Shown in pieces: positions 21,357 through 36,959 of a stretch of 64,000 nucleotides of DNA. The notes beneath the pieces are model-generated. The model made no database searches and had not been told where the DNA came from. It was given only the letters and a program-made list of their open reading frames with translations. The stretch is from positions 534,122-598,121 of the forward strand of contig CAWGKR010000011.1 of NCBI GenBank assembly GCA_963823195.1, read 5' to 3'. This DNA comes from an uncultured Acidobacteriota bacterium. GTDB taxonomy: Bacteria > Acidobacteriota > Vicinamibacteria > Fen-336. Positions within the stretch are counted from its first letter, which is position 1. Every line of letters starts with the position of its first letter. The translations under genes were made by a program, and so were the position numbers.

Positions 21357-21385
21357 TTGCGATCCCCTCCAAGTGTCCGTAATCA

Positions 21386-21682
21386 TCAACTCACCACCGT
21401 TGAGCCGCGTAGAGCGGCGAGCAGGCGCCCGGTCATCTCCGCGACGTTCTGTTTCGTCGGATCCGCGAGCACCGTCATCAGCTCAAACCCGCCGTCCACA
21501 CGGAGGACCCACCAAACGCTGGTGCGCGAGCAGACGACGGTGATCCTCCACTCGTCGGGAAGCCCGACAAGAATCGAACGCAAGCCCTGTTCGATCTCGC
21601 CCTTGGCCGGGTGATCATGCGCGATCTCACTATCGACGATGGTGCGATTCGTGAGGTTCGCGGGGCTGCTCACTCGAGCCAT
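21386..21682 (-). CDS. Small protein of unknown function (98 aa), last gene of the Ehr-like operon and third copy of a small paralog family
   Basis: Its start overlaps the upstream gene by 13 nt. The core EIEQGLRSILVGLPDEWRITVV...WWVLRVDGGFELMTVLADP...AEMTGRLLAAL follows the same pattern as the proteins at 32428..32907 and 33299..33742. Confidence 0.4.
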   Translation of the reverse strand: MARVSSPANLTNRTIVDSEIAHDHPAKGEIEQGLRSILVGLPDEWRITVVCSRTSVWWVLRVDGGFELMTVLADPTKQNVAEMTGRLLAALRGSTVVS

Positions 21683-21996
21683 CGAAGAAGGTGGAGAACC
21701 GAGCCACCCTCTTGGAGCGCCTCCCGGACGTCGGAGAGAGTGAGGAGTTCAGGATGACCGTGCGGCGCGAGTTCCACGATCCCTTCGTTCTGCAGACGGC
21801 GCAGCCCTTCGTCAAAGGCTTCCCGACTGACACTCCCACCGAGGAAGCGGCGTAGATCCCGGATCTTCGCGCTCCGCGGTCCGAAGCCGTGCTTCTGCGA
21901 GAATGCCGTAGCCTTGCGCAGGGCCTGCTCGAACTCGGCCGGGGACAGACCCTGGCTCCGGCTGCCTGCGTCAACGGTCGGCTGCGGGTCGTCCAT
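21670..21996 (-). CDS. Small protein of unknown function (108 aa), translationally coupled to the NuoB/HycG-like gene
   Basis: M59 of ORF 21670..22170. The ATG at 21996-21994 shares one base with the TGA (21998-21996) of the upstream gene. The sequence MDDPQPTVDAGSRSQGLSPAEFEQALRKATAFSQKHGF...LRRLQNEGIVELAPHGHPELLTL is not shadow-like. Confidence 0.45.
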   Translation of the reverse strand: MDDPQPTVDAGSRSQGLSPAEFEQALRKATAFSQKHGFGPRSAKIRDLRRFLGGSVSREAFDEGLRRLQNEGIVELAPHGHPELLTLSDVREALQEGGSVLHLLRWLE

Positions 21997-22931
21997 CAGA
22001 GCTCCTTCGCCTTGCTCGCGGGGGCGATCGTGGGCAGAGAGGCCCGCGTGGCGCGAGCTGCCAGGATGCGCTCGGGAAGCGCTGCGCGTCCGTCGGGCGT
22101 CAGGCGGGCGTCGCGCTTCCCCATCGCCACCAGCAACCCGTTGAGGATCGCTTGTGGACGGGGCGGGCAACCGGGGATGTAGACATCGACGGGCACGACG
22201 CGGTCGACTCCGCCCACGGCCGCGTACGTGGCCTCACCGAAGAGGCCCCCGCTGCAGCCGCAGGCCCCCACCGCCACGACCACACGCGGCTCGGGTGTGG
22301 CTTCGTAGGTCCTGCGAAGAGCGATCTCCATGTTCCTCGTGACCGGACCGGTCACGAGGAGGAGATCGGCGTGCCGGGGGCTCGCCACGAAGTGGATCCC
22401 GAAGCGCTCCAGGTCGAACACCGGGTTGGTCGTGGCGCTGATCTCCAGCTCGCACCCGTTGCAGGACCCCGCGTCGATCTGCCGAACATGGAGCGAGCGC
22501 CCGAGACGTCCCCGGATGCGTGCGCGCAGGCGGGCCGCTGATGCGCCGGGCCCGGGACCGGGTTGGGCGTCGAGTTGGCTGAGAGTCGCGCGACCAGCCC
22601 CGTCGACATCGAAGAGGGCTGTGTGTGTGAGCTGGTCCCGCGTGTAGGCTGCGACTTCGAAATCGCGTCCGGCGGACACCGCCTGCTCCGGGCAAGCCGT
22701 GACGCACTCCCGGCATTGGATACAGGCGCCGTAGGACAGGGACAACTTCCGGCGATCCGGGCGTGGCACGGACACCTGGATCGCCCCGGTGGGGCAGGCG
22801 CTGGCGCACTCGTCGCAGGCGGTGCACTTTGCGAAGTCGATCACGGGGAGACCGAACGGCGGTCGGGCGGTCAAAGGCTCTCGCTCGGTAAGGATCCCGG
22901 TCTTCAGGCTCTTGGCGATGATGCGGAACAT
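21996..22931 (-). CDS. Fusion of a HycF-like 2x[4Fe-4S] ferredoxin domain and a HycG/NuoB-like small subunit
   Basis: Intact 311-aa ORF. The N-terminus has CTACDECASACP and CIQCRECVTACP. The C-terminus has the NuoB/HycG pattern: IDAGSCNGCELE, SPRHADLLLVTGPVT, VAVGACGCSGG, YIPGCPPRP. Confidence 0.85.
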   Translation of the reverse strand: MFRIIAKSLKTGILTEREPLTARPPFGLPVIDFAKCTACDECASACPTGAIQVSVPRPDRRKLSLSYGACIQCRECVTACPEQAVSAGRDFEVAAYTRDQLTHTALFDVDGAGRATLSQLDAQPGPGPGASAARLRARIRGRLGRSLHVRQIDAGSCNGCELEISATTNPVFDLERFGIHFVASPRHADLLLVTGPVTRNMEIALRRTYEATPEPRVVVAVGACGCSGGLFGEATYAAVGGVDRVVPVDVYIPGCPPRPQAILNGLLVAMGKRDARLTPDGRAALPERILAARATRASLPTIAPASKAKEL

Positions 22932-22948
22932 GCGTCAGCTCCCTCCGT

Positions 22949-24537
22949 TCAGCGGTCGTTCCCCGAGTACGAAAGGTTGAAACTCTTGTTGATGACGGGA
23001 AAGTCCGGCACGATGTTGCCCGGCACGGCCCGGACGATCGCCGGCCAGTTCTTGGAGCTGGGATCGGTGACCTTCACTCTGTCGAGCCGGCCCTGCGCAT
23101 CGGTGCGCACCCAGTGCAGGCACTCCCCTCGCCAGCCTTCGGCCCAGCCCAGTGCTGAAGATGCGGCGGGCAGCACCTCGGGCAGGGGGGTGAGGACGTG
23201 TCCCTCGGGCAGGCCTTCCAGCACCTGGCGCAGAATCGAGAGGGATTGTTCTACCTCGCGCGCCCGCACCAGGAGGCGGGCTCGAACATCCCCTCCCTTT
23301 TCGACGGGTATGGCGAAGCGTAGGCCCGCGTAGGCGTCGTGGGGCTGGTCGCGCCTCAGGTCGAGGTCGAGGCCAGACGCCCGCGCCGCGATTCCCACTA
23401 CCCCGAGTTCCCGAGCCACCTGCGTCTCGAGAATCCCCGTGCCGTCGATGCGGTCAGTGAAAGTGCCGGAATCGATCAGGAGGGTCACGAGGTCGTCGAA
23501 CTCGCGCTGGAGCCGTTCCAGTTGCGACAGTAACTCCCTGCGGCGCCCGACGGTAAGATCGCACTTCACCCCGCCGAGCGCCACGGTGCCGCGCAGGAGG
23601 CGCGAGCCGAACAGGCGCTCCTGGATCCTGACGAGGCCCTCCCGGAGTGCCTGCGCCCGGCTCGCGGGCACGGTGAAGGCCACGTCGGTCGCGATGGCTC
23701 CGATGTCCGCGACGTGGTTGTAGACTCGCTCGAGCTCGAGGAGGACGACGCGCAGGTGCCGTGCCCGCGGCGGAGGCTCGACGCCCGCGATGCGCTCGAT
23801 CGCGTGGGCGTACGCGAGGGCGTGACCCACCGCCGTGTCTCCGGAGATTGACTCGGCCAGAAACAGGCCGTGGCGCCAAGGCAGTCGCTCGAAGCGCTTC
23901 TCGGTGCCCTTGTGCACGTAGAACAGGCGCAGTTGGAGATAGAGAATCGGCTCGCCCGCCACACCGAACCGGAAGTGGCCGGGCTCGATGATGCCCGCGT
24001 GAACCGGCCCCACCGGGAGGTGGAAGACGCCCTCGCCCGTCACCGGCCGATACGCCCGGAACTGCCCTCCCGCGCGCGGCACGGCCCGGCGATCGTCAAA
24101 GTCCTTGCGCAGCGCCCAGGCGCCCTCGGGCCAGTCGTCGTGCAGGGCGACCCGATTTTGGTTCGGGTGTCCCTCGGGCATCAGGCCGAAATAGTCCATG
24201 ACTTCCCGCTCGAACCAGTTGGCGACCGGGTGTTTCGCGGCGATCGAGGGAAAGCGCGGAGCGTTAGCCGGGACCGGCGACCACACGCGCACGAACCCCG
24301 GAGGCTCGGCCGAGGCCCACTGGTGATGGACGGCAAAGCCCTGCCCGGGCCCTCGTCCGTACCGAAGAGAGAGGAGAGGCGGAGACCAGCCGCAGCCGCG
24401 CGGTCGGCGGTAGCCAGGAGCCCGGCAAGGTCGACCTGGGCGACGAACTCGGCGGGCCTCACCTCGGCGAGAGAGTCGAGCCCGAGCTGTCTCGCGCAAC
24501 ACGTCTCGCTGCGGCCGTCACTGTCCGCCCTCCACAA
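22949..24537 (-). CDS. HycE/HyfG-like 'large subunit' (NuoC-NuoD fusion type) lacking the [NiFe] cysteine ligands. One frameshift near 24340; the start is uncertain.
   Basis: ORF 22949..24502 plus the N-terminal piece 24181..24537 (..LSSLFGTDEGPG / QGFAVHH..NWFEREVMDYFGL). Colinear HycE motifs: GPVHAGIIEPGHFRF, RLFYVHKGTEKRF, LLELERVYNH. The ligand positions read ESISGDTAVGH and NLSYSGNDR*. Confidence 0.85.
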
Positions 24538-26003
24538 CGCGCACGGCCGCGTGGATCAGGTCCAGCAGGCCGGGCGGCAGATAGAAGGCCGAGACCACCG
24601 CCAGGATCGCGGCGACAATCGTGGTGGCCGAGCCCGCATCGAACCGCTCGGCGTCGGCCACGCGCGCCGGGGCGGCGGGCTGCTCCCCCAGCACCAGGCG
24701 CCCGACCTGGTAGAAGAAGCCGCAGAACAGCAGTACCAGGCAGGCCAGGAAGACACCCATGGCAACGGTGTGCGGCCCCGCGAACCCGGTCTTGAGAATG
24801 GTCATCTCGCTGAAGAAGAGGCCAAAGGGCGGCGACCCGGTCATGATCACCGCCGCGAGCACGAAGAGCGCGCTCGCGACGGGAGTCCGTCCAAGCGTCC
24901 CCGGCCCGATCTCGTCGAAGTCCGACGAGGCGTGGAGCTGCGCGATCGTCCCCGCCGAGAAGAACGCGAGCGGCTTCGCGAGCGTGTGGTACGTCATGTG
25001 GAGCAGCGCGCCGAAGGTCGCGACCTCCGCGCCCAGCCCCACGCCAACCGCCATGATCCCCACGTGCTCGATGCTCGAGTAGGCGAGGAGCCGCTTCAGG
25101 TTCCACTGGATGAGGATGAACGGCGTGGCGACGCCCACCGACAGCAGCCCCAGCGCCAGCAGAAGCCCGCCCGAGAACTCGGGGCCGAAGGCGGCCCTCG
25201 CGATGGTATGGATGCGTAGAAGGCAGTACAGAGCGCCGTTGAGCATTCCCACGGCCATGAGGACGCCCGCGGGCGACGGCGCCTCGCGGTACGCGTCCGG
25301 CTTCCACGTGTGCATGGGTGCCAGACCCGCCTTGGTGCCGTAGCCGACGATGGCGAAGACCACGCCGAGCTTCAGCGTCAAGGGATGGAGCTGGCTCGCC
25401 GCGGCGACGAGACGAGTCCAGTTGAGGCCGGCCATGCCCTCGCCAAGGGTCCCCCGCCCGGACGCGAAGAGCAGCACGGTGCCGAGGAGCGCGAAGGCCA
25501 GGCCGAGGCTCCCCAGGACGAGGAATTTCCAGGCGGCCTCCAGCGACGTGTCGCGGTTGTGGAACGCAATCAGGAAGACCGACGCGAGTGTGGTGATCTC
25601 CACCGCGATCCACAGGATCCCGAGGTTGTTCGAGACCGAGACGAGCAGCATCGCAAAGACGTAGAGCGGGACGAGGGCATCGAACTCCCGTCGGCGCCAG
25701 GGCGTCACGAACCCGCGGGCCTCGTTGCGCCTCAGGTACCCGACGCTGTAGGCCCCGGAAATTAGTCCCACGAAGGCCGAGAGGACGAGGACGAGTGCCG
25801 AGAGCCCGTCGACGCGCAGCGCTTCGTCGAAGGCCGTCGGCGGCGCTCCCGCGAGGAACTGCCTCGCGGTGCCCATGGAGAGGACGAAGCGTCACGGCAA
25901 GGCCGACGACGAGGTTGGCCTCCTTGAGCCAGCGCGGCAGGGGCAAGACGCCCAGGAGCGCGGTCAGCAGCGGGATGGTCAGCGTCCAGAGAAGAAGATT
26001 CAC
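24518..26003 (-). CDS. HyfF/NuoN-like antiporter-type membrane subunit. One frameshift near 25880.
   Basis: ORF 24518..25876 carries WIAVEITTLASVFLIAFH, GYGTKAGLAPMHTWKPDAYREAPSP and LLAYSSIEHVGIM. The N-terminal helix (VNLLLWTLTIPLLTALLGVL) is in the frame of ORF 24459..26657, beginning at V219 (26003). Confidence 0.8.
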
Positions 26004-26008
26004 GATGC

Positions 26009-26657
26009 CTAACCCTTGAGCTTCGAAAGGCGGCTCACGTCCATCGACTCGAACCGGTCGGCGATGCGGTGGACGAGGACGCCGAGGACCAGGACGGCCA
26101 CGATGACGTCGAAGGAGATCCCCAGCTCGACGATCAGAGGCATCCCCGTGGTGGCGCCGAGGGCGACCAGGAAGACGGCGTTCTCGATCGTGAGCAGGGC
26201 CAGGATCTGGGTCACGGCCTTGCGCCGCGTCACCATCAGGAAGAGACCCATGAGCAGCATCGACAGGGAGACGCCGATGACGTGGTGCGCGGCGCCTTCT
26301 CCGGCCATCGGCGAGGCCCGTGCTGACGCGGTAGCCGACGACGGTGAGGCCCAGGCAGATGAGCAGCGACGCGGGAACGTTGAGGATCGGCTCGATCTCG
26401 CGGTGGATCCCGATGCGATCGATGACGCGCATGAGGAACCACGGGATCAAGACAGCCTTGAGGCCGATCGTGAGCGCCGCGCCGACGAAGAGGTGCGGGC
26501 GATGGTCCGCGAGGCCCATCACGACGGCGACCCCTCCCAGCAGCATGGACTGGAGTGCGTAGAGGCGGATGGCGGTGAAGAGCGCCCTCTGCCCGACCAT
26601 GAGGTACGCGGTGACCAGCATCCCGGCGGCAAGGAGGATCACGAGGTCTTGGCTCAT
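26009..26657 (-). CDS. HyfE-like small membrane subunit (NuoK-related). One frameshift near 26310.
   Basis: The N-terminus comes from ORF 24459..26657 (MSQDLVILLAAGMLVTAYLMVGQ...LKAVLIPWFL...). The C-terminus comes from ORF 26009..26308 (..LALLTIENAVFLVALGATTGMPLIVELGISFDVIVAVLV..). The total span of about 216 codons matches HyfE size. Confidence 0.75.
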
Positions 26658-26667
26658 CCTTGGCTCC

Positions 26668-27606: not shown

Positions 27607-29639
27607 CGGCCACCTCCAAGCCAGAGCAGCAAGACGATTCCCAGGACCAGGACGTAAGCGAGGTAGGCGTGGAGGCTGCCGGCCTGGATCACCTTCATCC
27701 GCTCGGCCACTCCCATCACGCCCCGCGTCAGCGGCCCGTACAGGAACCGCTCGAACGTGGGCTCGATCTCCGACCGGTACTTCACCTCCCTCGGGAAGTG
27801 CGCTTCTCCCACCGTCTCCACTGCCCGCGTCGGCCGGTAGATCGCGCTGAAGATCATCATCAGGGGCTTCGAGAACGCCGTGGCCGTGTACTCCGTCCGC
27901 GCCGTCAGCTCACCGCCGCACCCCCATGTCGGCACTCGTCTCACCGCGTAGCCCGCCGCCAGCGACATCGCTCCCGCCAGTGCCAGCCCCACCAGCACCG
28001 CCCCCGCCACGAGAGGCGGCGCCAGGTGGTCGAAGTGTCCCGGTCCCGGCGCAATCGCGACCCAACTCCGCACCATCTCCGGCGCCGGACGCACCCCCGG
28101 CAACGAGCCCGCGACTCCCCGCAGGACCTCGAGCACCCATCCCGGGGCAAGCCCAAGCACGAAGCACATGAGCGCCAGGAAGGCCTGCGGCACGAGCATC
28201 AAACTCGGAGACTCGTGCGCCTTCTCCGCCCCCTCGCCCCGCGGCAACGCCAGAAACGTCATCCCAAACGCCTTCACGAAACACGCCGCCGCTAACGCAC
28301 TTGTGAGCGCCAAAAGAGCACCCGCCACAGGAAAGATGAGCCGGCTGAGCGTGGTGGTAGCGGTGAAGCCCCGGAGCAGCGCCTGGAAGAGCAACCACTC
28401 GCTGACGAAACCGTTGAGGAGCGGCAGCCCCGAGATCGCCGCCGCCCCCACCAGGAAGAACAGTGCCGTCCACGGCATCCGCTTTGCGAGACCGCCCATC
28501 CCTTCGAGTTGCCTGGTGCCGCTGGCCATCACAACTCCTCCCGCGCCCAGGAACAGCAGCCCCTTGAAGAGCGCGTGGCTAAGGACGTGGAAGAGGCTTG
28601 CCGCGATTCCCAGCGCGGCCAGCTCGGGCCGGCCTGCCGAGAGCGCCATCATCCCCGCCCCCAATCCGAGCAGGATGATCCCGACGTTCTCGATGGTGCT
28701 GTACGCGAGCATTCGCTTGATGTCGTTCTGCGTCAGCGCGTAGAGCACCCCCAGGATCGCTGTGAGCGAGCCGACCGCAGCGAGCGCCATCCCCCAGTCC
28801 CAAACGGGAACGCCGAGGCCGAACGCGCACACCCGGAAGAGGCCGTATATCCCCGTCTTGATCAGGACCCCCGACATCAGAGCCGAGATGCTCGACGGCG
28901 CCGCGGGGTGCGCCTCGGGCAGCCACAGGTGCAGCGGCATCGCCCCCGCCTTGACGCCGAAACCGATGAAGAACAGGACGAATAGCCCGTCACGCAGCCG
29001 GCCCCCGGGAAGAAAGCCGGAGAGCACGTCTGAGAACGCGAGGGAACCCGAGAATGAGACCAGGGTGAAGAACCCCGCGGCGAGGCACCCCGTCCCGACG
29101 TGAGACATGACGAGGTAGATGAATGCGGCCCGGCGGCTGTCGCGTCTTTCGTGCTCCGTCGCGACCAGAGCCGCTGACGCGAGCGACATCACCTCCCATG
29201 CGAACAGGAAGCCGATGACGCCGTCCGCGACGAAGACAGCTTCGATCGCACCGAGAAGCACGTTGAAGCCCACGCCCAAGAACGCCGAGCGGCGGTCGAG
29301 GGGCTCATGGCCCAGATAGGCCACGCTGTAGACGGCGATTGGCAGCGCAAGGAGGGCAAGGACGAGCAGGAACCAGGCGGATAGAGGCGTGACCTCGTAG
29401 CCGAAGGACAGGCCGGAGGCGGTGTGGCTGAACAGTGCACCCTGGAGCGGCGCTCCTCCAGACAGGACCGCGAGGGCCGCCGCGCCCGTGAGCGCCGACG
29501 CAGCCACGGAGCCGGACAAGGCCATTGGCCGACACCAGCGGGAGCGGCCGGCCAGAGCCAGCGACATAGCTATCGATCCCAGGCGCACGGCGAAAGCAAG
29601 AGGAAGGAAGTCCGCCACGAGCACCGGCCAGTGGGTCAC
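27603..29639 (-). CDS. HyfB/NuoL-like antiporter-type membrane subunit, copy 2
   Basis: Intact 678-aa ORF. Motifs: FFIGFGVKAGAMPLHLWLPEAHPAAPSSISALMSGVLIKTGIYG, MLAYSTIENVGIILLG. The C-terminal ~240 aa are identical to copy 1. Confidence 0.85.
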   Translation of the reverse strand: MTHWPVLVADFLPLAFAVRLGSIAMSLALAGRSRWCRPMALSGSVAASALTGAAALAVLSGGAPLQGALFSHTASGLSFGYEVTPLSAWFLLVLALLALPIAVYSVAYLGHEPLDRRSAFLGVGFNVLLGAIEAVFVADGVIGFLFAWEVMSLASAALVATEHERRDSRRAAFIYLVMSHVGTGCLAAGFFTLVSFSGSLAFSDVLSGFLPGGRLRDGLFVLFFIGFGVKAGAMPLHLWLPEAHPAAPSSISALMSGVLIKTGIYGLFRVCAFGLGVPVWDWGMALAAVGSLTAILGVLYALTQNDIKRMLAYSTIENVGIILLGLGAGMMALSAGRPELAALGIAASLFHVLSHALFKGLLFLGAGGVVMASGTRQLEGMGGLAKRMPWTALFFLVGAAAISGLPLLNGFVSEWLLFQALLRGFTATTTLSRLIFPVAGALLALTSALAAACFVKAFGMTFLALPRGEGAEKAHESPSLMLVPQAFLALMCFVLGLAPGWVLEVLRGVAGSLPGVRPAPEMVRSWVAIAPGPGHFDHLAPPLVAGAVLVGLALAGAMSLAAGYAVRRVPTWGCGGELTARTEYTATAFSKPLMMIFSAIYRPTRAVETVGEAHFPREVKYRSEIEPTFERFLYGPLTRGVMGVAERMKVIQAGSLHAYLAYVLVLGIVLLLWLGGGR
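27652..28334. repeat. Direct repeat copy 1 (3' part of hyfB-like copy 2), identical or near-identical to 29690..30372
   Basis: The offset between copies is 2038 nt. ORF-track translations are identical in three different frames: 27669..28295 equals the tail of 29422..30333, 27926..28171 equals 29964..30209, and 27941..28156 equals 29979..30194. By reading, 27652-28310 is perfect, there is one mismatch at 28311, and the match continues to 28334. Confidence 0.85.
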
Positions 29640-29640
29640 G

Positions 29641-31680
29641 TCAGCCCCTCCACCACAGGAGGAGCACGAGGCTCAGGACGAGAGCAATCACGTAAGCGAG
29701 GTAGGCGTGGAGGCTGCCGGCCTGGATCACCTTCATCCGCTCGGCCACTCCCATCACGCCCCGCGTCAGCGGCCCGTACAGGAACCGCTCGAACGTGGGC
29801 TCGATCTCCGACCGGTACTTCACCTCCCTCGGGAAGTGCGCTTCTCCCACCGTCTCCACTGCCCGCGTCGGCCGGTAGATCGCGCTGAAGATCATCATCA
29901 GGGGCTTCGAGAACGCCGTGGCCGTGTACTCCGTCCGCGCCGTCAGCTCACCGCCGCACCCCCATGTCGGCACTCGTCTCACCGCGTAGCCCGCCGCCAG
30001 CGACATCGCTCCCGCCAGTGCCAGCCCCACCAGCACCGCCCCCGCCACGAGAGGCGGCGCCAGGTGGTCGAAGTGTCCCGGTCCCGGCGCAATCGCGACC
30101 CAACTCCGCACCATCTCCGGCGCCGGACGCACCCCCGGCAACGAGCCCGCGACTCCCCGCAGGACCTCGAGCACCCATCCCGGGGCAAGCCCAAGCACGA
30201 AGCACATGAGCGCCAGGAAGGCCTGCGGCACGAGCATCAAACTCGGAGACTCGTGCGCCTTCTCCGCCCCCTCGCCCCGCGGCAACGCCAGAAACGTCAT
30301 CCCAAACGCCTTCACGAAACACGCCGCCGCTAACGCACTTGTGAGCGCTAAAAGAGCACCCGCCACAGGAAACAGGAAGCGCACGAGGGCTTCCGGGGAG
30401 AGAAGGAACCCGAATAGAAAGGCTTGGAAGAGCAACCACTCGCTGACGAAGCCGTTGAGGAGCGGCAGGCCTGAGATCGCCGCCGCGCCCACCAGGAAGA
30501 ACAGCGCCGTCCAGGGCATCCGCTTCGCAAGGCCGCCCATCTCTTCGATGTGGCGCGTGCCTGTCGCGACCACGACGCCACCGGCACCCAAGAACAGCAG
30601 CCCCTTGAAGAGGGCGTGGTTCAGGACGTGGAAGAGGCTCGCCGCGACCCCCACGGCGGCCAGCTCGGGCCGGCCTGCCGAGACCGCCATCATCCCCGCC
30701 CCCAATCCGAGCAGGATGATCCCGACGTTCTCGATGCTGTGGTACGCGAGCAGGCGCTTGAGGTCGTGCTGCATGAGCGCGTAGAGCACGCCGAGAATCG
30801 CGGACGCGCCGCCGAAGGCAACGACGAGGACACCCCAGACCAGGGGCGGCTCGCCGAGGCCAAAAGCGCACACCCGGAACAAGCCGTAGATTCCCGTCTT
30901 GATGACGATCCCGGACATCAACGCCGAGATGCTCGTCGGCGCGGCGGGGTGCGCCTCGGGGAGCCATACGTGCAGGGGGATCATCCCGGCCTTGACCCCG
31001 AAGCCGGCCAGGAAGAGCAGAAAGACGAAGTCCCGCGCGCGCCCGGGCGGGAGGACGGTACCCGCGAGGATGTGCTCGAAACTCATTGAGGATGCGGCCC
31101 GAGAGAGGACGAGGAACCCGGAGATCAGGCAGCCAGTGGCGACGTGAGACATCGCCAGGTACAGGAAAGCGGCGCGCCGCGCCTCGCGCCGCTCGTGCTC
31201 GGTCGTGACCAGAGCCGCGGTCGCGAGCGTCATCAGCTCCCACGCGAACAGGAAGACGATGACGCCATTGGCTGCGAACACCACCTCGACCGCACCCACC
31301 AGGACGCTGAAGCCCACACTCACGAACACGGAGCGTCGGTCGAGTGTCCCGTGGCCCAGATAGGCCACGCTGTAGACGGCGATCGGGATGGCCAGGAGAG
31401 CGAGCACCAGCAGGAACCACGCTGAAAGCCGGTCGATGGCGAAGCCAAGTGAAAAGCCCGAAGCCGCGTGTTGGAGCCACTCGCCGTGAATACCCTGGCC
31501 CGTCGTGAGCACGTGGACGGCGAGCATGCCGGTGACGAGGGACGCGAGGCACGAACCCCCCAGGGCGGCCCGCCGGCTCAAACCGGGCCGACCGGCGAAG
31601 GCCAGCGCGAGGGCGATGCTCCCGAGCCGCAGCGCCACGGCGGCCGGGAGCCAGGCTGCCGCTTCGGGTGCCTCCGTCAT
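29641..31680 (-). CDS. HyfB/NuoL-like antiporter-type membrane subunit, copy 1
   Basis: M56 of ORF 29641..31845 (MTEAPEAAAWLPAAVALRLGS..). Its ATG overlaps the stop of the upstream zinc-ribbon gene (ATGA). It has the same motifs as copy 2: GFGVKAGMIPLHVWLPEAHPAAPTSISALMSG, LLAYHSIENVGIILLG. Confidence 0.85.
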   Translation of the reverse strand: MTEAPEAAAWLPAAVALRLGSIALALAFAGRPGLSRRAALGGSCLASLVTGMLAVHVLTTGQGIHGEWLQHAASGFSLGFAIDRLSAWFLLVLALLAIPIAVYSVAYLGHGTLDRRSVFVSVGFSVLVGAVEVVFAANGVIVFLFAWELMTLATAALVTTEHERREARRAAFLYLAMSHVATGCLISGFLVLSRAASSMSFEHILAGTVLPPGRARDFVFLLFLAGFGVKAGMIPLHVWLPEAHPAAPTSISALMSGIVIKTGIYGLFRVCAFGLGEPPLVWGVLVVAFGGASAILGVLYALMQHDLKRLLAYHSIENVGIILLGLGAGMMAVSAGRPELAAVGVAASLFHVLNHALFKGLLFLGAGGVVVATGTRHIEEMGGLAKRMPWTALFFLVGAAAISGLPLLNGFVSEWLLFQAFLFGFLLSPEALVRFLFPVAGALLALTSALAAACFVKAFGMTFLALPRGEGAEKAHESPSLMLVPQAFLALMCFVLGLAPGWVLEVLRGVAGSLPGVRPAPEMVRSWVAIAPGPGHFDHLAPPLVAGAVLVGLALAGAMSLAAGYAVRRVPTWGCGGELTARTEYTATAFSKPLMMIFSAIYRPTRAVETVGEAHFPREVKYRSEIEPTFERFLYGPLTRGVMGVAERMKVIQAGSLHAYLAYVIALVLSLVLLLWWRG
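29690..30372. repeat. Direct repeat copy 2 (3' part of hyfB-like copy 1)
   Basis: See copy 1. Beyond the repeat the two genes remain recognisable paralogs, but the protein sequences diverge (WLLFQALLRGFTATTTLSRLI vs WLLFQAFLFGFLLSPEALVRFL). Confidence 0.85.
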
Positions 31681-32366
31681 TGGTCGACCCTCGGGACCGG
31701 GCGGAGCGTCGACGGCATGAGATCGCGCTCTATCCAGCCGCGGTCGTAGAGCAGCCGGACGCAGCCGGAGCAGGGCACGACGAGCAGGCTCTCCTCCACG
31801 AGCCGTCGGCTCGCGTCCGGAAGCGTCTCGCCGCAGCCCGGGCACCGACCGTCGTGCAGCGCAACCAGCGCTGGCTGCTGACCCTTCTGGATGGCCGCTT
31901 GATAGCGCTCTCTGAGCGGCGCCGAAGCGCGGGCGAGTGCCACTCCTCGTTCCTCCGCGAGCCCGACGGCCCTCCGCCGGAGGTCGGAGGCCATTGCGAG
32001 AACGTCGATCTCTTCCCGCCTCAATGCCTCCGCGAGCTCGGCATGCATGCCCTGGTTGCTGAGCCGGCGAAGGCGCCGCTTCGCCAGGACCTCCCCGCTC
32101 TCCTGCGTGGGCCCCGGAGACCGGTCGCCCTCGACCAGCTCCGCAAGCGCAGCCAGGTCCGACCGCAGGCGCTCGAGAGGTTCCAGAAGCTCAGCCAAGG
32201 ACTGGTGGAGGCGGTCCATTTGGGCGTCGAGGCCGGCCAGTCGGAGGAGAGCAACCGCGTCGTCCCGTACACCAGGTTGCGTCAGGGGAGGCGCCGTCGA
32301 CGGATGAGCCGCGGGCTCCGCGGGGCGAACTGGCGCCGATGCCGCAGGGTCCCCCTTCACAGTCAC
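31677..32366 (-). CDS. Coiled-coil protein with a C-terminal C4 zinc ribbon (COG1579 / zf-RING_7-like)
   Basis: 229-aa ORF. The helical middle region has heptad-like Leu/Ala/Arg/Glu content. The C-terminus reads VALHDGRCPGCGETLP...VVPCSGCVRLLY. The stop overlaps the hyfB-like copy 1 start. Confidence 0.65.
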   Translation of the reverse strand: MTVKGDPAASAPVRPAEPAAHPSTAPPLTQPGVRDDAVALLRLAGLDAQMDRLHQSLAELLEPLERLRSDLAALAELVEGDRSPGPTQESGEVLAKRRLRRLSNQGMHAELAEALRREEIDVLAMASDLRRRAVGLAEERGVALARASAPLRERYQAAIQKGQQPALVALHDGRCPGCGETLPDASRRLVEESLLVVPCSGCVRLLYDRGWIERDLMPSTLRPVPRVDQ

Positions 32367-32427
32367 TCGATCTGCCCCCTCCGGTGGAGGAGCCGCTCGC
32401 AGCGGGCCGGTTCCAATCCGTCTCCCC

Positions 32428-32907
32428 CTAGCACGACTCCTCCGTCACGAGGATCCACGCCCTCGTCCACCGCGTTGGGCCCGAGGAAGTTGGGGGCCGG
32501 CGGAACGCGTCCTTCAGCCGCCGCGCCATCCCGTGCCTCTTCTGTCGGCCAGGATTCGGGATGAAGGCCAGCCACCGGAACCCGTCCGGCGATACGATCT
32601 CGACGCAGATCGCGTCCAACGGCGCGATGCGAGCTCTCCATCGGCAGTCCAACCCCGAGAGCGCCTCGCGGACCGCGGCCTCGATGGCGTCGCGGCCCGG
32701 CCGTCCGCGGGGCACCTCGTTGGCGACGCCCCGGCGCTGACCACCGGCGCCGGTCACGCCCTTCTTCTTGGGAAGGACCCGCGTCGGGTGCCAGCGGATC
32801 CCCATCCGGGGCGTCGAGGGGGCTCCGTTCTCTCCTTGCGCCGGGCCGGTCTCGGACCGCCGCCTGCGTGAGGGTCGGGAGCTTCGCTCGCGCAAAGCGG
32901 AGCTCAT
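32428..32907 (-). CDS. Small protein of unknown function (paralog family, copy 2). The N-terminal ~60 aa are Arg/Gly-rich and the start is uncertain.
   Basis: The ATG at 32907 shares one base with the upstream TGA. The core is GRDAIEAAVREALSGLDCRWRARIAPLDAICVEIVSPDGFRWLAFIPNPG...ARRLKDAF. An alternative internal start is M35 (32805). Confidence 0.35.
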   Translation of the reverse strand: MSSALRERSSRPSRRRRSETGPAQGENGAPSTPRMGIRWHPTRVLPKKKGVTGAGGQRRGVANEVPRGRPGRDAIEAAVREALSGLDCRWRARIAPLDAICVEIVSPDGFRWLAFIPNPGRQKRHGMARRLKDAFRRPPTSSGPTRWTRAWILVTEESC

Positions 32908-33302
32908 CAGGGCCGCCTCTCGGCGGACGCCAGGGTGGTCCGCCCCGACGACTTGTCGTCGGCAACTTGGGAGTCTTCAGAGACGAACTCCCGGACGTAC
33001 AGCATTCGCTGGCAATGCGGACAAGTGTGGACGGCGGGTGAGCAGCGCGTCTTGGACTCGACCATGGTCGGGAGGCGCAAGTGGCAACCCGAGCAACTCC
33101 CACGGGCGAGGGCGACGACTACCGGTGTGCGGCCGGCCTGGAGCAGCAGTTCGTAGCGGTCGAGGAGGCGCCGCGGCAGGTGGCTGGCCGCAGCATCCCG
33201 GTTTCGGCGGCTTGTCTCCGTGGTGGGTGCACCCGCGCTCTGGTCCAGCTCGGCAAGCTGTAGAAGAGCGCGCAGCTGCTTTGCCGTCGCTTCGATCTTC
33301 AT
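32907..33302 (-). CDS. Short C4 zinc-ribbon protein (COG1579-like C-terminus), paralog of 31677..32366
   Basis: 131-aa ORF. The N-terminus is helical (MKIEATAKQLRALLQLAELD). It then reads VVALARGSCSGCHLRLP...HTCPHCQRMLYV. It has an ATGA overlap with the upstream gene. Confidence 0.6.
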   Translation of the reverse strand: MKIEATAKQLRALLQLAELDQSAGAPTTETSRRNRDAAASHLPRRLLDRYELLLQAGRTPVVVALARGSCSGCHLRLPTMVESKTRCSPAVHTCPHCQRMLYVREFVSEDSQVADDKSSGRTTLASAERRP

Positions 33303-33742
33303 TTCGGGGTCCTTCTCGTCGAGTCGTCGGGCGCCGGGTGGGCGATCTCGCCTCCTGCCGGGAGGACATTCCAGGGGGCGTCACCAGGGCCATCGGCTGC
33401 GTCCCCGGGCACGTTCGGCTTCGCGGCGATTGGCCGGAGCCGGGAGTGCCGGCTACGCGCAACCCGCACTTCTTCGGCCAGATCCTCAGGACGCGGCCCC
33501 ACGTGAACGGGGACCGACATGGCCCAGCTCGCACCGTCCGGGGCGACCACGTCCAGGCGGAACCAGGTTCGGCCGTTGGCCGTGACGGACACATCCCACG
33601 GTCCCGGCAAGTCTCTTAGAGCAACGCGGAAGACCTCGTCCATTGCCGCCCGATAGCGATGGCCGGGAGACAGGCGGTTGTGCACGGTGATCTCTCCATG
33701 GGACTGAGGCGGATGCGGGACGACCAGGTATTCCTTCTTCAT
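33299..33742 (-). CDS. Small protein of unknown function (paralog family, copy 1)
   Basis: M25 of ORF 33299..33814 (MKKEYLVVPHPPQSHGEITVHN..). It has an ATGA overlap with the REC-like gene. The core is YRAAMDEVFRVALRDLPGPWDVSVTANGRTWFRLDVVAPDGASWAMSVPVH..PEDLAEEVRVA. Confidence 0.4.
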   Translation of the reverse strand: MKKEYLVVPHPPQSHGEITVHNRLSPGHRYRAAMDEVFRVALRDLPGPWDVSVTANGRTWFRLDVVAPDGASWAMSVPVHVGPRPEDLAEEVRVARSRHSRLRPIAAKPNVPGDAADGPGDAPWNVLPAGGEIAHPAPDDSTRRTPK

Positions 33743-34161
33743 GGGCGGGACCCCGAGGCCAGCAGCGTCGCCCGGTCGATCGCGTGCCGCACCGTCTCGT
33801 TCGAGGCAGGCCACGAGAGGAACGCGGTTGCCCCGCTCTCGAAGGCACGTTTGAGATCGGGGTCGGTCGGCGTCTTGGTGACTACGACGACGGCCGTGCG
33901 GGGAGAAACCTCGCGGATGCGGCGAAGGAGGAGGAGATCGGTGGCCGCGAGGGGACCCGCGGCGAGGAGGACTGCCTGTACGACACCTCTGGCGAGCACG
34001 GTAAGGACGCCGTCAAGTCGTGCGACGCGGTCGGTGGCGTAGCCCTCGCTGGTGAGGAGCATCCCAACCTCAGGCTGCCAATCTTGGGCCTCGCCCACGA
34101 GCACGACGAGTTTCGAGCGCGGAGAGCTATCGAGAGCAGCCCGCCGCTTCTGGGCCTTCAC
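33739..34161 (-). CDS. Stand-alone receiver-like (CheY-fold) protein lacking the phospho-acceptor Asp (pseudo-receiver)
   Basis: 140-aa ORF with a REC-like alternation: KLVVLVGE (beta1), AVLLAAGPLAATDLLLLRRIRE (beta3/alpha3), AVVVVTKT (beta4), GATAFLSWP (beta5). The positions expected for DD, D57 and K109 read GE, A and W. Confidence 0.6.
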   Translation of the reverse strand: MKAQKRRAALDSSPRSKLVVLVGEAQDWQPEVGMLLTSEGYATDRVARLDGVLTVLARGVVQAVLLAAGPLAATDLLLLRRIREVSPRTAVVVVTKTPTDPDLKRAFESGATAFLSWPASNETVRHAIDRATLLASGSRP

Positions 34162-34309
34162 TGGAATTCGGTAGTGCGAGAGGCGTGCCCGAGGACGTCG
34201 TTACCTCTATCTTGCTGATCCCACGGCGTTAAGGTGCCTTGAGCAACGGAAAGCCCTGGAGCTTCAAGAGGCTCGTACGTGCCGATTCAGCACTGTCCGC
34301 CCGGATTTG

Positions 34310-34325
34310 TGCGGCTGAAGTGCCG
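34310..34325 (-). promoter_or_regulatory. Candidate sigma-54 -24/-12 promoter element upstream of the Ehr-like operon (weak call)
   Basis: The minus strand reads CGGCACTTCAGCCGCA against the consensus TGGCAC-N5-TTGCA. GG and GC have the correct 10-nt spacing, and it lies about 150 nt upstream of the REC-like start. A second candidate is AGGGCTTTCCGTTGCT (34257-34242), with a perfect TTGCT but a poor -24 element. Confidence 0.25.
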
Positions 34326-34339
34326 TTCTAGCACTTCAG
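34315..34339. repeat. Perfect 9-bp inverted repeat (CTGAAGTGC-N7-GCACTTCAG) between ntrC-like and the operon
   Basis: Read directly from the sequence. It lies about 45 nt after the ntrC-like stop (34383) and overlaps the sigma-54 candidate. It could be a terminator-like hairpin (there is no U tract) or a palindromic activator site. Confidence 0.5.

Positions 34340-36882: not shown

Positions 36883-36959
<77 letters not shown>

What the first reader, a model, noticed from the sequence alone, without database searches (positions are those of the whole stretch)
21386..34161. A tightly coupled ~12.8-kb operon joins the Ehr-like complex to a pseudo-receiver, two zinc-ribbon proteins and five small unknown proteins
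Fourteen consecutive minus-strand genes are packed with start/stop overlaps, derived from ORF-track coordinates:
- 33742/33739: ATGA.
- 33302/33299: ATGA.
- 32907: one shared base.
- 31680/31677: ATGA, joining the long zinc-ribbon gene to the first HyfB-like gene.
- 29641/29639: 1-nt gap.
- 27606/27603: GTGA.
- 21996: one shared base.
- 21682/21670: 13-nt overlap.

The gene order is: REC-like, unknown, Zn-ribbon, unknown, Zn-ribbon/coiled-coil, HyfB-like x2, HyfC-like, HyfE-like, HyfF-like, HycE-like, HycF-G fusion, unknown, unknown.

None of the usual partners of Hyf/Hyc-type complexes is present. There is no FdhF, no HycB/HyfA ferredoxin, no Hyp proteins and no HycI. I do not recognise the accessory genes as components of described Hyf/Hyc/Ech/Mbh/Ehr operons. 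The coupling argues that they are made stoichiometrically with the membrane complex, so they may be new subunits, assembly factors or a built-in regulatory module.
Basis: partly seen in the sequence, partly recalled or inferred. Interest (0 to 1): 0.85.

Follow-up and report, generated by a model that had tools for sequence, protein, structure and literature searches.

The report
Sigma-54 Ehr-like operon with regulatory add-ons
A soil acidobacterial operon for a hydrogenase-like, nickel-free membrane energy complex carries a conserved set of small signalling-type proteins, which more likely tune its sigma-54-dependent expression than act as new enzyme subunits.

Summary
Corrections:
- HyfE, HyfF and the HycE-like gene are broken by five single-base indels. 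The whole window shows about one such break per kb, so these are probably assembly errors.
- The gene list contains four unknowns, not five.
- Three of the unknowns (unk2, unk4, unk14) are paralogues of one ~80-residue domain that has no Pfam family.

The core is an Ehr-type complex. All four [NiFe] cysteines of the large subunit are replaced.

The two zinc-ribbon proteins belong to the DUF164 family of HP0958 and CT398, which bind sigma-54. The REC-like protein is a true pseudo-receiver, and unk13 looks like a winged helix.

Upstream lie a sensor-less histidine kinase, an NtrC-type activator, two conserved palindromes and a conserved -24/-12 promoter.

In 80 metagenome loci found with the pseudo-receiver:
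- the activator is adjacent in 48 of 50;
- a DUF164 gene lies before HyfB in 38 of 39.

Copy numbers of the accessory genes vary. The accessory set is absent from 80 more distant Ehr/Hyf-like loci.

Best reading: a lineage-specific, operon-encoded regulatory module. It is a new variant of a known kind, and its function is untested.

The parts
35745..36440 (-). Sensor-less histidine kinase of 231 aa. It has only HisKA and HATPase_c domains, with the H-box HEVRNP at His21.
   Evidence: Pfam. Sequence. A homologue lies upstream in 32 of 33 related loci with enough sequence.
34383..35741 (-). NtrC-type sigma-54 activator (bEBP): a bona fide receiver, an AAA+ Sigma54_activat domain with a GAFTSA loop, and HTH_8.
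   Evidence: Pfam, Sigma54_activat E 4e-65. Sequence. It lies directly upstream of the pseudo-receiver in 48 of 50 loci.
34320..34334 (-). Distal enhancer-like palindrome GTGCTAGAACGGCAC (GTGC-N7-GCAC).
   Evidence: Conserved at about -175 in related loci. The pattern occurs only at these two sites in the window, against 0.01 expected.
34279..34293 (-). Proximal enhancer-like palindrome GTGCTGAATCGGCAC, 41 nt from the first.
   Evidence: Conserved at about -134 in related loci.
34175..34189 (-). Sigma-54 type -24/-12 promoter GGCACGCCTCTCGCA. The predicted transcript start is about 34164, roughly 3 nt before the GTG.
   Evidence: Invariant block in the three-way alignment. GGCAC-N7-GC found within 90 nt of the start (mostly near -29) in 56 of 70 loci. 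Single match in the window.
33739..34161 (-). Pseudo-receiver of 140 aa. It has the receiver fold but no phospho-acceptor Asp, Gly at the first acidic-pocket position and Trp in place of the conserved Lys.
   Evidence: Pfam Response_reg E 1.2e-6, 29.1 bits against a cutoff of 30.2. Among 73 family members the acceptor loop (positions 63-69) holds an Asp in only one, at position 69, and the motif is SWP in 73 of 73. dN/dS 0.22-0.27.
33299..33742 (-). unk2: the first copy of a novel ~80-residue beta-alpha-beta-beta-beta-alpha domain. In some relatives it is fused to the pseudo-receiver.
   Evidence: hhalign against unk4/unk14, 98% probability. Fusions in L096, L129, L137, P0250 and P0268. dN/dS about 0.38.
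32907..33302 (-). Zn3: a short DUF164 (Zn_ribbon_9) protein, the most conserved accessory partner of the pseudo-receiver.
   Evidence: PF02591, 31.6 bits against a cutoff of 29.1. A Zn-ribbon gene lies between REC and HyfB in 38 of 39 loci. The family profile hits CT398 and HP0958.
32428..32907 (-). unk4: the second copy of the novel domain, with a long basic N-terminal extension.
   Evidence: BLASTP against unk14, E 6e-6. hhalign. Present in a minority of loci. dN/dS about 0.39.
31677..32366 (-). ZnCC5: a full-length DUF164 protein (coiled coil plus C4 zinc ribbon). Its stop overlaps the HyfB1 start (ATGA).
   Evidence: Paralogue of Zn3, E 3e-11. The profile aligns to HP0958 residues 60-248 and CT398 residues 94-254 with E about 3e-12. 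Junction.
29641..31680 (-). HyfB-like antiporter subunit 1 (NuoL/Mrp type).
   Evidence: Proton_antipo_M E 1.8e-55. 86% identical to the single HyfB of L001.
27603..29639 (-). HyfB-like antiporter subunit 2. Positions 27652-28310 are identical to 29690-30348 in HyfB1.
   Evidence: Proton_antipo_M E 2.8e-59. 659-nt exact repeat. Tandem HyfB genes also occur in L005, L124, L133, L152-L154 and L159.
26668..27606 (-). HyfC/NuoH-like membrane subunit.
   Evidence: NADHdh E 2.6e-43.
26009..26657 (-). HyfE-like subunit with a NuoK-like C-terminal half. Its frame is broken by one extra base at about 26304.
   Evidence: tblastn gives two frames. DNA alignment.
24518..26005 (-). HyfF-like antiporter subunit. 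Its frame is broken by one extra base at about 25890.
22949..24521 (-). Cysteine-less large subunit (NuoC+NuoD-like; HycE-like). Its first 180 nt carry indels of +1, +1 and -1.
   Evidence: Pfam. Best solved relative is E. coli HycE 7Z0S_E, E 1.5e-78, with the NiFe cysteines replaced by S, T, S and G. The motifs ESISGDTAVGH and NLSYSGNDR are invariant in 21 relatives. Indels.
21996..22931 (-). HycF-HycG fusion: a 2x[4Fe-4S] ferredoxin-like domain joined to a NuoB-like domain that keeps its cluster cysteines.
   Evidence: Fer4 families plus Oxidored_q6 E 6.8e-35. The motifs CNGC, GACGC and GCPP are visible in the sequence.
21670..21996 (-). unk13: a small soluble protein with a probable winged-helix fold.
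   Evidence: 14 homologues of 63-95% identity. AlphaFold2 pLDDT 77.8. Foldseek hits are all winged-helix domains but weak, E 0.02-0.3. Pfam MCM4_WHD E 0.013.
21386..21682 (-). unk14: the third copy of the novel domain and the last gene of the operon.
   Evidence: Found directly after HycFG, or after an unk13-like gene, in L001, L110, L165, L166 and a JGI contig. AlphaFold2 topology b-a-b-b-b-a with pLDDT 66.7. dN/dS 0.30.

Best explanation
The locus is a sigma-54-dependent operon of a Vicinamibacteria-type acidobacterium. It encodes an Ehr-type complex: a relative of complex I and formate hydrogenlyase without nickel. The complex has three or four antiporter-like subunits, a NuoH-like subunit, a cysteine-less NuoCD-like subunit and a ferredoxin-NuoB fusion that keeps its iron-sulfur cysteines.

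**Transcription (largely shown).** A conserved -24/-12 promoter drives the operon. The adjacent NtrC-type activator probably binds two conserved GTGC-N7-GCAC palindromes. It is presumably phosphorylated by the adjacent kinase, which has no sensor domain of its own.

**The seven accessory genes (inferred function).** They are real, conserved, soluble proteins of signalling or transcription types:
- a pseudo-receiver that cannot be phosphorylated;
- two DUF164 proteins of the HP0958/CT398 family, whose characterised members bind and stabilise sigma-54;
- three copies of a new ~80-residue domain that is fused to receivers in other genomes;
- one winged-helix-like protein.

I infer that they form an operon-encoded feedback or input module acting on the kinase-activator-sigma-54 system.
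- The pseudo-receiver, with its unk-domain partner, would dock on the kinase or on the activator's receiver.
- The DUF164 proteins would hold or stabilise sigma-54.
- Translational coupling would fix their ratios.

The logic is that of hycA, the regulator encoded as the first gene of the sigma-54-dependent E. coli hyc operon.

**Shown:** anatomy, conservation, family assignments, and promoter and enhancer conservation.
**Inferred:** every protein-protein contact and the sign of the regulation.

The frame breaks in three core genes are most likely assembly errors.
For: - **Core identity and loss of the NiFe cysteines:**
- **Promoter:** GGCAC-N7-GC lies within 90 nt of the pseudo-receiver start, mostly near -29, in 56 of 70 loci. 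It is invariant in a three-way alignment.
- **Enhancer sites:** two palindromes occur only here in the window, against 0.01 expected, and are conserved at about -175 and -134.
- **Regulators:** activator and kinase domains are confirmed. The activator is adjacent in 48 of 50 loci and the kinase in 32 of 33.
- **Pseudo-receiver:** among 73 members the acceptor loop holds an Asp in only one (position 69), and Trp replaces the conserved Lys in 73 of 73.
- **DUF164 membership:** PF02591 scores above its cutoff. The family profile hits CT398 (4ILO) and HP0958 (3NA7) at E about 3e-12. Their binding to sigma-54 is described in PMC3372290 and PMC5947703.
- **Novel domain:** the three copies are paralogues. 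There is no Pfam match even at E 10. Only 185 of 1.84 billion representative proteins match. It is fused to the pseudo-receiver in L096, L129, L137, P0250 and P0268, and to a genuine receiver in P0294.
- **Soluble, no redox motifs:** no hydrophobic segments were found.
- **Variable copy number:** architectures range from REC-Zn-HyfB (16 loci) to REC-unk2-Zn-unk4-Zn-Zn-HyfB.
- **Co-variation with the regulators:** sister clusters L005 and L006 lack the kinase and activator and also lack all accessory genes.
- **Purifying selection:**
- **Precedent:** the hyc operon depends on sigma-54 and FhlA, and hycA, its first gene, is the FHL repressor (PMC4987338, PMC8487115).
- **Window-wide frame errors:**
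Against: - No experiment or interaction prediction supports any of the proposed contacts.
- ZnCC5 is translationally coupled straight into hyfB (ATGA), and unk13/unk14 follow HycFG with overlaps. That pattern is also what stoichiometric subunits would show.
- The complex has no recognisable electron-input module, so an unknown partner is needed. The accessory proteins are the only candidates in the operon.
- DUF164 proteins also exist in bacteria without sigma-54 (PMC3372290), so family membership does not prove sigma-54 binding.
- The co-variation of the accessory genes with the kinase/activator is confounded by phylogeny, because it compares two clades.
- The unk-domain model is of low confidence (pLDDT 66.7).
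- A sigma-54 gene was not seen, because it is not in the window.
Confidence: 0.55

Rival explanations
1. The accessory proteins are structural subunits or dedicated assembly factors of the Ehr complex. For example, they could form a novel peripheral module that docks the unknown electron donor or acceptor, made in fixed ratio with the membrane arm.
For: - The coupling is tight: ATGA between ZnCC5 and HyfB1, TGATG between HycFG and unk13, and a 13-nt overlap between unk13 and unk14. The same junctions occur in L001 and L165.
- There is no FdhF, HyfA or NuoEFG-type input module in the operon or window.
- A DUF164 gene lies before HyfB in 38 of 39 loci.
- The unk14-type gene is always directly after HycFG wherever it is present.
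Against: - The accessory proteins have no membrane segments and no Fe-S, flavin or nucleotide motifs. Their only cysteine motif is the structural zinc ribbon.
- Copy number varies from 0 to 3 between clusters whose core subunits are 75-90% identical.
- The set is absent from sister clusters and from 77 other Ehr/Hyf-like loci.
- Every recognisable domain belongs to a signalling or transcription family, and the novel domain is fused to receivers.
- dN/dS is two to five times that of the core subunits.
Confidence: 0.25
2. In this genome the operon is a decaying pseudogene cluster. On this view the five frameshifts in HyfE, HyfF and the large subunit, and the HyfB repeat, are biological.
For: - There are five single-base indels relative to two independent relatives.
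- There is a 659-nt exact repeat between the HyfB genes.
Against: - Stop-less frame switches occur at about 1 per kb outside the operon, against about 0.2-0.4 per kb inside it.
- They break obvious housekeeping and transport genes. The stitched translations of those genes still give coherent Pfam domains across the frame junctions.
- The source is an 859-kb metagenomic contig. Another long ENA contig, L165, shows a similarly broken large subunit.
- Codon-position GC and coding potential stay intact across the breaks.
Confidence: 0.07
3. Some of the small ORFs are not genes. They would be chance open frames in 69% G+C DNA between real genes.
For: - High-GC DNA gives many long spurious ORFs.
- unk13 has only 14 detectable homologues.
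- unk4 is present in a minority of loci.
Against: - Every accessory ORF has homologues in independent contigs at the same operon position.
- dN/dS is 0.2-0.65.
- The GC3 pattern is that of coding sequence.
- The Viterbi coding path follows these frames.
- The unk domain and unk13 give folded AlphaFold models.
Confidence: 0.03

Closest known systems
Ehr (energy-converting hydrogenase-related) complexes, as described for Geobacter, Nitrospira, Margulisbacteria and others (PMC6349859, PMC10284858)
   Same: [quoted passage not shown]
- It has a NuoB-like small subunit, a NuoH-like subunit and Mrp/NuoL-like antiporter subunits.
- There are no maturation genes.
- The substrate is unknown.
   Different: - The gene order and subunit set are Hyf-like (HyfB, C, E, F, then large subunit, then a HycF-G fusion).
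- It carries a lineage-specific flanking set of pseudo-receiver, DUF164, unk-domain and winged-helix genes.
- It has its own kinase/activator/sigma-54 promoter.
- None of these extras is mentioned for the Ehr clusters in the papers I could read.
E. coli formate hydrogenlyase operons hyc and hyf (FHL-1 and FHL-2)
   Same: - The best solved relative of the large subunit is HycE (7Z0S_E, E 1.5e-78).
- The membrane subunits are HyfB/C/E/F-like.
- Transcription depends on sigma-54 and an enhancer-binding activator.
- A regulator (hycA) is encoded as the first gene of the hyc operon (PMC4987338, PMC8487115).
   Different: - There are no NiFe ligands, so it is not a hydrogenase.
- There is no FdhF, HycB/HyfA, HycI or Hyp.
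- The activator is a two-component response regulator, not the formate-sensing FhlA/HyfR type.
- The leading regulatory genes are unrelated to HycA.
HP0958 (FlgZ) of Helicobacter pylori and CT398 of Chlamydia trachomatis (DUF164 / PF02591 / COG1579)
   Same: - They share a C-terminal C4 zinc ribbon with two CxxC motifs and an N-terminal coiled coil.
- The family profile matches both structures at E about 3e-12.
- The characterised members bind sigma-54, and the genes here sit in a sigma-54-dependent operon.
   Different: - There are two or three paralogues per operon, whereas bacteria were reported to have almost always one DUF164 protein per genome (PMC3372290).
- Zn3 has a much shortened helical part.
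- There is no link to flagella or type III secretion.
- Binding to sigma-54 is untested here.
Pseudo-receiver domains and single-domain receivers that modulate kinases or regulators
   Same: It has the receiver fold with a well-conserved alpha4-beta5-alpha5 region (DLKRAFESGATAFLSWPAS). It is a stand-alone protein encoded next to a cognate-looking kinase and response regulator.
   Different: It has no phospho-acceptor Asp and no conserved Lys, so it cannot serve as a phosphate sink. It forms its own narrow family that is always linked to this Ehr-like operon.
HPF/YfiA/pY ribosome hibernation factors (historically called 'sigma-54 modulation protein')
   Same: The AlphaFold model of unk14 has the same beta-alpha-beta-beta-beta-alpha topology. 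These proteins are the top Foldseek hits (E 0.035, TM about 0.5).
   Different: There is no sequence-level signal at all. The model is of low confidence and the match is below any safe threshold. I treat it as a lead only.

Membership tests
Ehr complex | The large subunit is homologous to the group 4 [NiFe]-hydrogenase large subunit / NuoD. | tested here: met
   Complex1_49kDa E 1.1e-44 plus Complex1_30kDa. E. coli HycE 7Z0S_E, E 1.5e-78, over the full length.
Ehr complex | Both CxxC motifs that bind Ni and Fe are absent. | tested here: met
   HycE vCgiC aligns to iSgdT, and dpCysCtdr aligns to nlSysGndr. The replacement motifs are invariant in 21 relatives and present in the window sequence.
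Ehr complex | It has a NuoB-like small subunit, a NuoH-like subunit and antiporter-like membrane subunits. | tested here: met
   Oxidored_q6, NADHdh and three Proton_antipo_M proteins, plus a NuoK-like half in HyfE.
Group 4a formate hydrogenlyase (Hyc/Hyf) | The four NiFe-ligand cysteines are present in the large subunit. | tested here: not met
   All four are replaced.
Group 4a formate hydrogenlyase (Hyc/Hyf) | It has FdhF and HycB/HyfA electron-input partners, and HycI/Hyp maturation genes. | tested here: not met
   None was found in the operon, its flanks or the other intact ORFs of the window. The rest of the genome could not be examined.
DUF164 / Zn_ribbon_9 (HP0958, CT398) | It has a C-terminal C4 zinc ribbon with two CxxC motifs. 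| tested here: met
   Zn3 scores 31.6 bits on PF02591 against a cutoff of 29.1. All four Cys are invariant in a 21-sequence alignment of both paralogue types.
DUF164 / Zn_ribbon_9 (HP0958, CT398) | It has an N-terminal coiled-coil hairpin. | tested here: inconclusive
   The family profile aligns over HP0958 residues 60-248 and CT398 residues 94-254, which fits ZnCC5. Zn3 has only about 65 residues before the ribbon. No structure was predicted.
DUF164 / Zn_ribbon_9 (HP0958, CT398) | It binds or stabilises sigma-54. | not testable with these tools
   This is known only for HP0958 and CT398 (PMC3372290, PMC5947703). Here it is inferred from the sigma-54 promoter context.
Response-regulator receiver domain | It has the receiver fold. 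| tested here: inconclusive
   Response_reg E 1.2e-6 over profile positions 2-110, but 29.1 bits against a cutoff of 30.2. It is 29% identical to the activator's receiver over alpha3-alpha5.
Response-regulator receiver domain | It has the phospho-acceptor Asp at the end of beta3 and the conserved Lys before the KP turn. | tested here: not met
   Among 73 members the acceptor loop (positions 63-69) holds an Asp in only one, at position 69, and never at the acceptor position. Trp replaces Lys in 73 of 73. It is therefore a pseudo-receiver.
Sigma-54-dependent, bEBP-activated operon | It has GG and GC elements with canonical -24/-12 spacing upstream of the first gene, conserved among relatives. 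| tested here: met
   GGCACGCCTCTCGCA at 34175-34189. Seen in 56 of 70 loci within 90 nt of the start, mostly near -29. It is an invariant block in the alignment.
Sigma-54-dependent, bEBP-activated operon | It has an adjacent enhancer-binding protein and upstream enhancer sites. | tested here: met
   Sigma54_activat E 4e-65. Two conserved palindromes lie about 90 and 130 nt upstream of the promoter. Their binding by the activator is inferred.
Sigma-54-dependent, bEBP-activated operon | An rpoN gene is present and transcription depends on it. | not testable with these tools
   rpoN is not in the window, and no expression data exist.
HPF/YfiA fold (for the unk domain) | Significant structural or sequence similarity to HPF/YfiA. 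| tested here: inconclusive
   Same topology. Foldseek E 0.035-0.3 and TM 0.44-0.52 on a model with pLDDT 66.7. No Pfam signal in 84 members at E 10.
Winged-helix domain (for unk13) | Three-helix bundle plus beta wing, matching known winged-helix structures. | tested here: inconclusive
   Model pLDDT 77.8. The top 50 Foldseek hits are almost all winged-helix domains, but E is 0.02-0.3 and TM 0.45-0.53. Pfam MCM4_WHD E 0.013.

The most novel reading that the evidence does not exclude
The accessory proteins are signalling subunits that physically connect the working Ehr complex to its own sensor-less kinase and to sigma-54.

The pseudo-receiver/unk pair and the DUF164 proteins would report the activity or redox state of the membrane complex to the transcription machinery. 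This would resemble PhoU linking the Pst transporter to PhoR, or BceAB informing BceS.

It would be the first respiratory-type complex-I relative with built-in flux-sensing adaptors. It would also give the first function for a new receiver-associated domain family.
Probability: 0.15. Interest if true: 0.8.

Novelty: new variant of a known kind. Interest (0 to 1): 0.5.

Why it matters
Ehr complexes are widespread relatives of complex I and energy-converting hydrogenases. Their substrates and physiology are unknown.

This lineage offers a handle on them. It has a defined kinase/activator/sigma-54 switch with recognisable enhancer sites, so the inducing condition could be found by following one promoter.

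It also provides three further leads:
- the first case I could find of several DUF164 (HP0958-family) paralogues embedded in a sigma-54-dependent metabolic operon, which could help explain what this poorly understood family does outside flagellar systems;
- a strictly conserved pseudo-receiver family;
- a previously undescribed ~80-residue domain that is repeatedly fused to receiver domains.

If the module turns out to couple complex activity to transcription, that would be a new design principle for respiratory enzymes.

Tried and rejected
- **Source contig.** An exact look-up of ZnCC5 found only a 2.2-kb Logan contig without DNA. An exact look-up of P0143 (identical to unk2) found no gene record. 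The cluster look-up gave no names, so the source organism is known only as an 859-kb NCBI/ENA contig.
- **Accessory genes at other Ehr/Hyf-like loci.** tblastn and HMM searches of 80 GTDB loci found nothing, apart from one mini zinc-ribbon ORF in L068.
- **Pfam on the unk domain.** Scanning 84 members at E 10 gave only scattered single noise hits.
- **HPF/YfiA fold similarity.** The matches are too weak to use.
- **Helical N-termini of P0261/P0303.** I tested whether they are DUF164 coiled coils, which would be a fusion clue. hhalign gave a probability of 2%, so I rejected the idea.
- **Internal sigma-54 site.** I read the 61-nt gap before ZnCC5 by eye and found no correctly spaced GG/GC pair. 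The sigma-70 consensus scan found 0 sites in 20300-34500, and the terminator-like hits all lie inside genes.
- **Downstream ORF 20387-21277.** It has no homologue in any related locus, so it is not part of the operon.
- **Rfam.** It found only a tRNA at 36886-36959.
- **One dN/dS value.** My dN/dS for the large subunit was mis-framed and is discarded.

Full report
**1. What is there**

The window is about 69% G+C. On the minus strand between 21386 and 34161 lie 14 genes. Pfam confirms the core:
- two HyfB-like antiporter subunits;
- a NuoH-like HyfC;
- HyfE, with a NuoK-like half;
- HyfF;
- a large subunit with NuoC-like and NuoD-like domains;
- a fusion of a 2x[4Fe-4S] domain to a NuoB-like domain.

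Among the accessory genes, Pfam sees only a sub-threshold receiver match (33739-34161) and a Zn_ribbon_9 match (32907-33302).

The same overlaps recur in L001, an independent short-read metagenome contig.

The closest large-subunit relatives are 72-91% identical. The ones that carry a source name are labelled Vicinamibacteria or Acidobacteria.

**2. Corrections to the observation**

*Frame breaks.* Three core genes are not intact in this sequence.
- tblastn with the intact L001 proteins splits HyfE, HyfF and the large subunit over two frames each.
- DNA alignments with L001 and L093 show five single-base indels: about 26304, about 25890, about 24510, about 24489 (all +1) and about 24344 (-1).
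- The large subunit really starts at the GTG that overlaps the HyfF stop (GTGA, 24521/24518). It does not start at 24502.

*Are the breaks biological?* I ran a codon-usage Viterbi path over the whole window.
- About 52 frame switches without a stop codon lie outside the operon, roughly 1 per kb. Three to five lie inside it.
- Outside the operon they break a pyrimidine-nucleoside phosphorylase and a TolC-like gene many times. The stitched translations still give single coherent Pfam domains across the junctions.
- The source is an 859-kb metagenomic contig.

The breaks are therefore most likely assembly errors, not pseudogenisation.

*HyfB repeat.* HyfB1 and HyfB2 share a 659-nt exact repeat (29690-30348 = 27652-28310). 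Tandem HyfB genes are genuine in this lineage. In other loci their 3' halves are 80-96% identical, never 100%. The perfect identity here is either very recent gene conversion or an assembly artefact.

**3. The core is an Ehr-type complex**

- The best solved relative of the large subunit is E. coli HycE (7Z0S_E, E 1.5e-78).
- In that alignment the four NiFe cysteines are replaced by Ser, Thr, Ser and Gly.
- The replacement motifs ESISGDTAVGH and NLSYSGNDR are invariant in 21 relatives.
- The NuoB-like domain keeps its cluster cysteines.
- No Fdh, HyfA/HycB, Hyp or HycI domain occurs in the operon, its flanks or the other intact ORFs of the window.

This matches published descriptions of Ehr complexes, whose function is unknown (PMC6349859, PMC10284858).

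**4. What the accessory genes are**

*(a) Pseudo-receiver (33739-34161).* In 73 family members the acceptor loop at the end of beta3 holds an Asp in only one, and never at the acceptor position. The first acidic-pocket residue is always Gly. The conserved Lys is always Trp, giving the motif SWP.

*(b) Zn3 and ZnCC5.*
- They are paralogues of each other (E 3e-11).
- A profile of the family hits only two solved structures significantly: CT398 (4ILO, E 2.7e-12) and HP0958 (3NA7, E 3e-12).
- These are the DUF164 coiled-coil/zinc-ribbon proteins. HP0958 protects sigma-54 from turnover. CT398 binds sigma-54 through its coiled coil (PMC3372290, PMC5947703).
- PMC3372290 also reports that bacteria almost never have more than one DUF164 protein. 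This operon has two, and relatives have up to three.

*(c) unk2, unk4 and unk14.*
- They are paralogues of one ~80-residue domain (hhalign 98% probability, E 8.5e-14; alignment).
- The domain has no Pfam match even at E 10.
- A word-indexed search of 5.8 billion proteins finds 107 members.
- An exhaustive HMMER search of 1.84 billion representatives finds 185.
- The AlphaFold model has beta-alpha-beta-beta-beta-alpha topology but low confidence, pLDDT 66.7.
- Its best fold matches are HPF/YfiA. These are too weak to rely on.
- The domain occurs fused behind the pseudo-receiver in L096, L129, L137, P0250 and P0268.
- It also occurs in front of a bona fide receiver in P0294. Such fusions indicate a functional link with receiver domains.

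*(d) unk13.* It has only 14 detectable homologues. Its model has pLDDT 77.8, and the fold matches are almost all winged-helix domains, though weak.

*General properties.* None of the seven has a membrane-like hydrophobic segment. All are under purifying selection. Against L001, dN/dS is 0.22-0.55 for the five accessory genes compared, and 0.11-0.14 for core genes and the activator. Family-wide medians are 0.27-0.65.

**5. Upstream control region**

- Directly upstream lies an NtrC-type activator: a genuine receiver, Sigma54_activat (E 4e-65) and HTH_8.
- Next to it lies a 231-residue kinase that consists only of HisKA and HATPase_c.
- The 220-nt gap before the pseudo-receiver holds GGCACGCCTCTCGCA at 34175-34189. 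This has canonical -24/-12 spacing.
- The gap also holds two GTGC-N7-GCAC palindromes at 34279-34293 and 34320-34334.
- Across related loci the promoter motif lies within 90 nt of the start codon, mostly near -29, in 56 of 70. The palindromes sit at about -134 and -175.
- The predicted transcript start is only about 3 nt before the GTG. This is an inference.
- The sigma-70 consensus scan found no site in the region. Rfam found only a tRNA upstream of the kinase gene.

**6. Comparative genomics**

*From the accessory side.* A metagenome scan with the pseudo-receiver returned 80 loci. Among those with enough sequence:
- the activator is adjacent in 48 of 50;
- the kinase is present in 32 of 33;
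- a DUF164 gene lies between the pseudo-receiver and HyfB in 38 of 39.

| Architecture | Loci |
|---|---|
| REC-Zn-HyfB | 16 |
| REC-unk2-Zn-HyfB | 8 |
| REC-unk2-Zn-Zn-HyfB | 5 |
| REC-unk2-Zn-unk4-Zn-HyfB (as in the window) | 5 |
| other variants | 5 |

The constant pair is therefore pseudo-receiver plus one DUF164 protein. The rest is expandable.

*The 3' end.* The unk14-type gene sits directly after HycFG, or after an unk13-like gene, in L001, L110, L165, L166 and a JGI contig. It is absent in L002, L003 and L004.

*From the core side.* A scan of one genome per GTDB species returned 80 loci.
- Three are 68-69% identical in the large subunit, and the rest are 54% or less.
- None carries the accessory genes by tblastn or HMM search.
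- The Vicinamibacteria loci L005 and L006 have tandem HyfB genes. They have no kinase, activator, pseudo-receiver or DUF164 gene.
- The one exception is a mini zinc-ribbon ORF after HycFG in an Acidimicrobiia MAG, L068.

**7. Interpretation**

The accessory set is real and conserved but specific to one lineage. It varies in copy number and is built wholly from signalling or transcription-type modules. It is inherited together with a kinase/activator/sigma-54 promoter, not with the Ehr core as such.

The best-supported reading is an operon-encoded regulatory module. The precedent is hycA, the repressor encoded as the first gene of the sigma-54/FhlA-dependent hyc operon (PMC4987338, PMC8487115). 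The proposed contacts are:
- pseudo-receiver and unk partner with the kinase or the activator;
- DUF164 proteins with sigma-54.

These contacts are inference only.

The main rival is that they are stoichiometric subunits or assembly factors. The translational coupling into hyfB and after hycFG keeps this alive, as does the missing electron-input module. I give the regulatory reading 0.55 and the subunit reading 0.25.

A hybrid reading is the most novel one not excluded: adaptors that report the activity of the complex to its sensor-less kinase.

**8. Verdict**

- This is a new variant of a known kind: an Ehr-type complex under sigma-54 control, carrying a previously undescribed accessory module and one new domain family.
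- Interest is moderate. The module is coherent and testable, but all functional claims are inferred, and the sequence comes from an error-rich assembly.

Noticed in passing
window 27652-28310 and 29690-30348: A 659-nt perfectly identical direct repeat lies inside the two tandem HyfB-like genes. The rest of the two genes is 50-90% identical. In other loci with two HyfB genes the 3' halves are 80-96% identical but never identical. This is either recent gene conversion or an assembly or polishing artefact.
   Followed up: partly
whole window, e.g. 45855-47029, 47184-49669, 51202-55486, 60945-64000: Frame switches without stop codons are pervasive, at about 1 per kb. They break housekeeping and transport genes: a pyrimidine-nucleoside phosphorylase, and NupC-like, purine nucleoside phosphorylase-like and TolC/OEP genes. 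Stitched translations give coherent Pfam domains. The assembly is rich in indel errors, so ORF-based readings of this window are unreliable.
   Followed up: partly
window 36886-36959 (-): A tRNA gene (Rfam RF00005, 65 bits) lies about 450 nt upstream of the kinase gene.
   Followed up: no
window 34164 (predicted) to 34161: The conserved sigma-54 promoter sits so close to the pseudo-receiver's GTG that the transcript would have a leader of only about 3 nt. The -29 spacing recurs in most of the related loci that carry the motif.
   Followed up: partly
L001 11587-12141: An OmpA-family gene (184 aa) is inserted between the large-subunit gene and HycFG in an otherwise collinear relative.
   Followed up: no
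L110 1-12512: One Ehr-like cluster ends here (HycFG-unk13-unk14). It is followed by a reversed kinase/activator-like pair, and then by a second kinase-activator-REC-unk2-unk2-Zn-unk4 start. Two clusters therefore lie in tandem on one contig.
   Followed up: no
JGI 3300056388 contig 7951-9657; L165 11096-11695: A malic enzyme gene overlaps the unk14-type gene by 4 nt in one relative. A Malic_M fragment lies 0.8 kb downstream in another. This may be a clue to the metabolic context, but the gene is absent from the window.
   Followed up: no
L068 13277-13537: In an Acidimicrobiia MAG (large subunit 50% identical), a mini ORF with a DUF164-type zinc ribbon follows HycFG, and a sigma-54 activator gene lies divergently upstream. 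This may be an independent link between DUF164 and this kind of cluster.
   Followed up: partly
P0294, P0261, P0303: The new domain also occurs fused to a fully canonical receiver (P0294). It also occurs behind long Ala-rich helical regions (P0261, P0303), which are unrelated to the DUF164 coiled coil.
   Followed up: partly
window 12340-19943 and 40378-45455: The neighbourhood is rich in signalling genes: two Ser/Thr kinases with PD40 repeats, a 591-aa receiver protein, a REC-GAF-HD_5 protein and an EAL protein.
   Followed up: no
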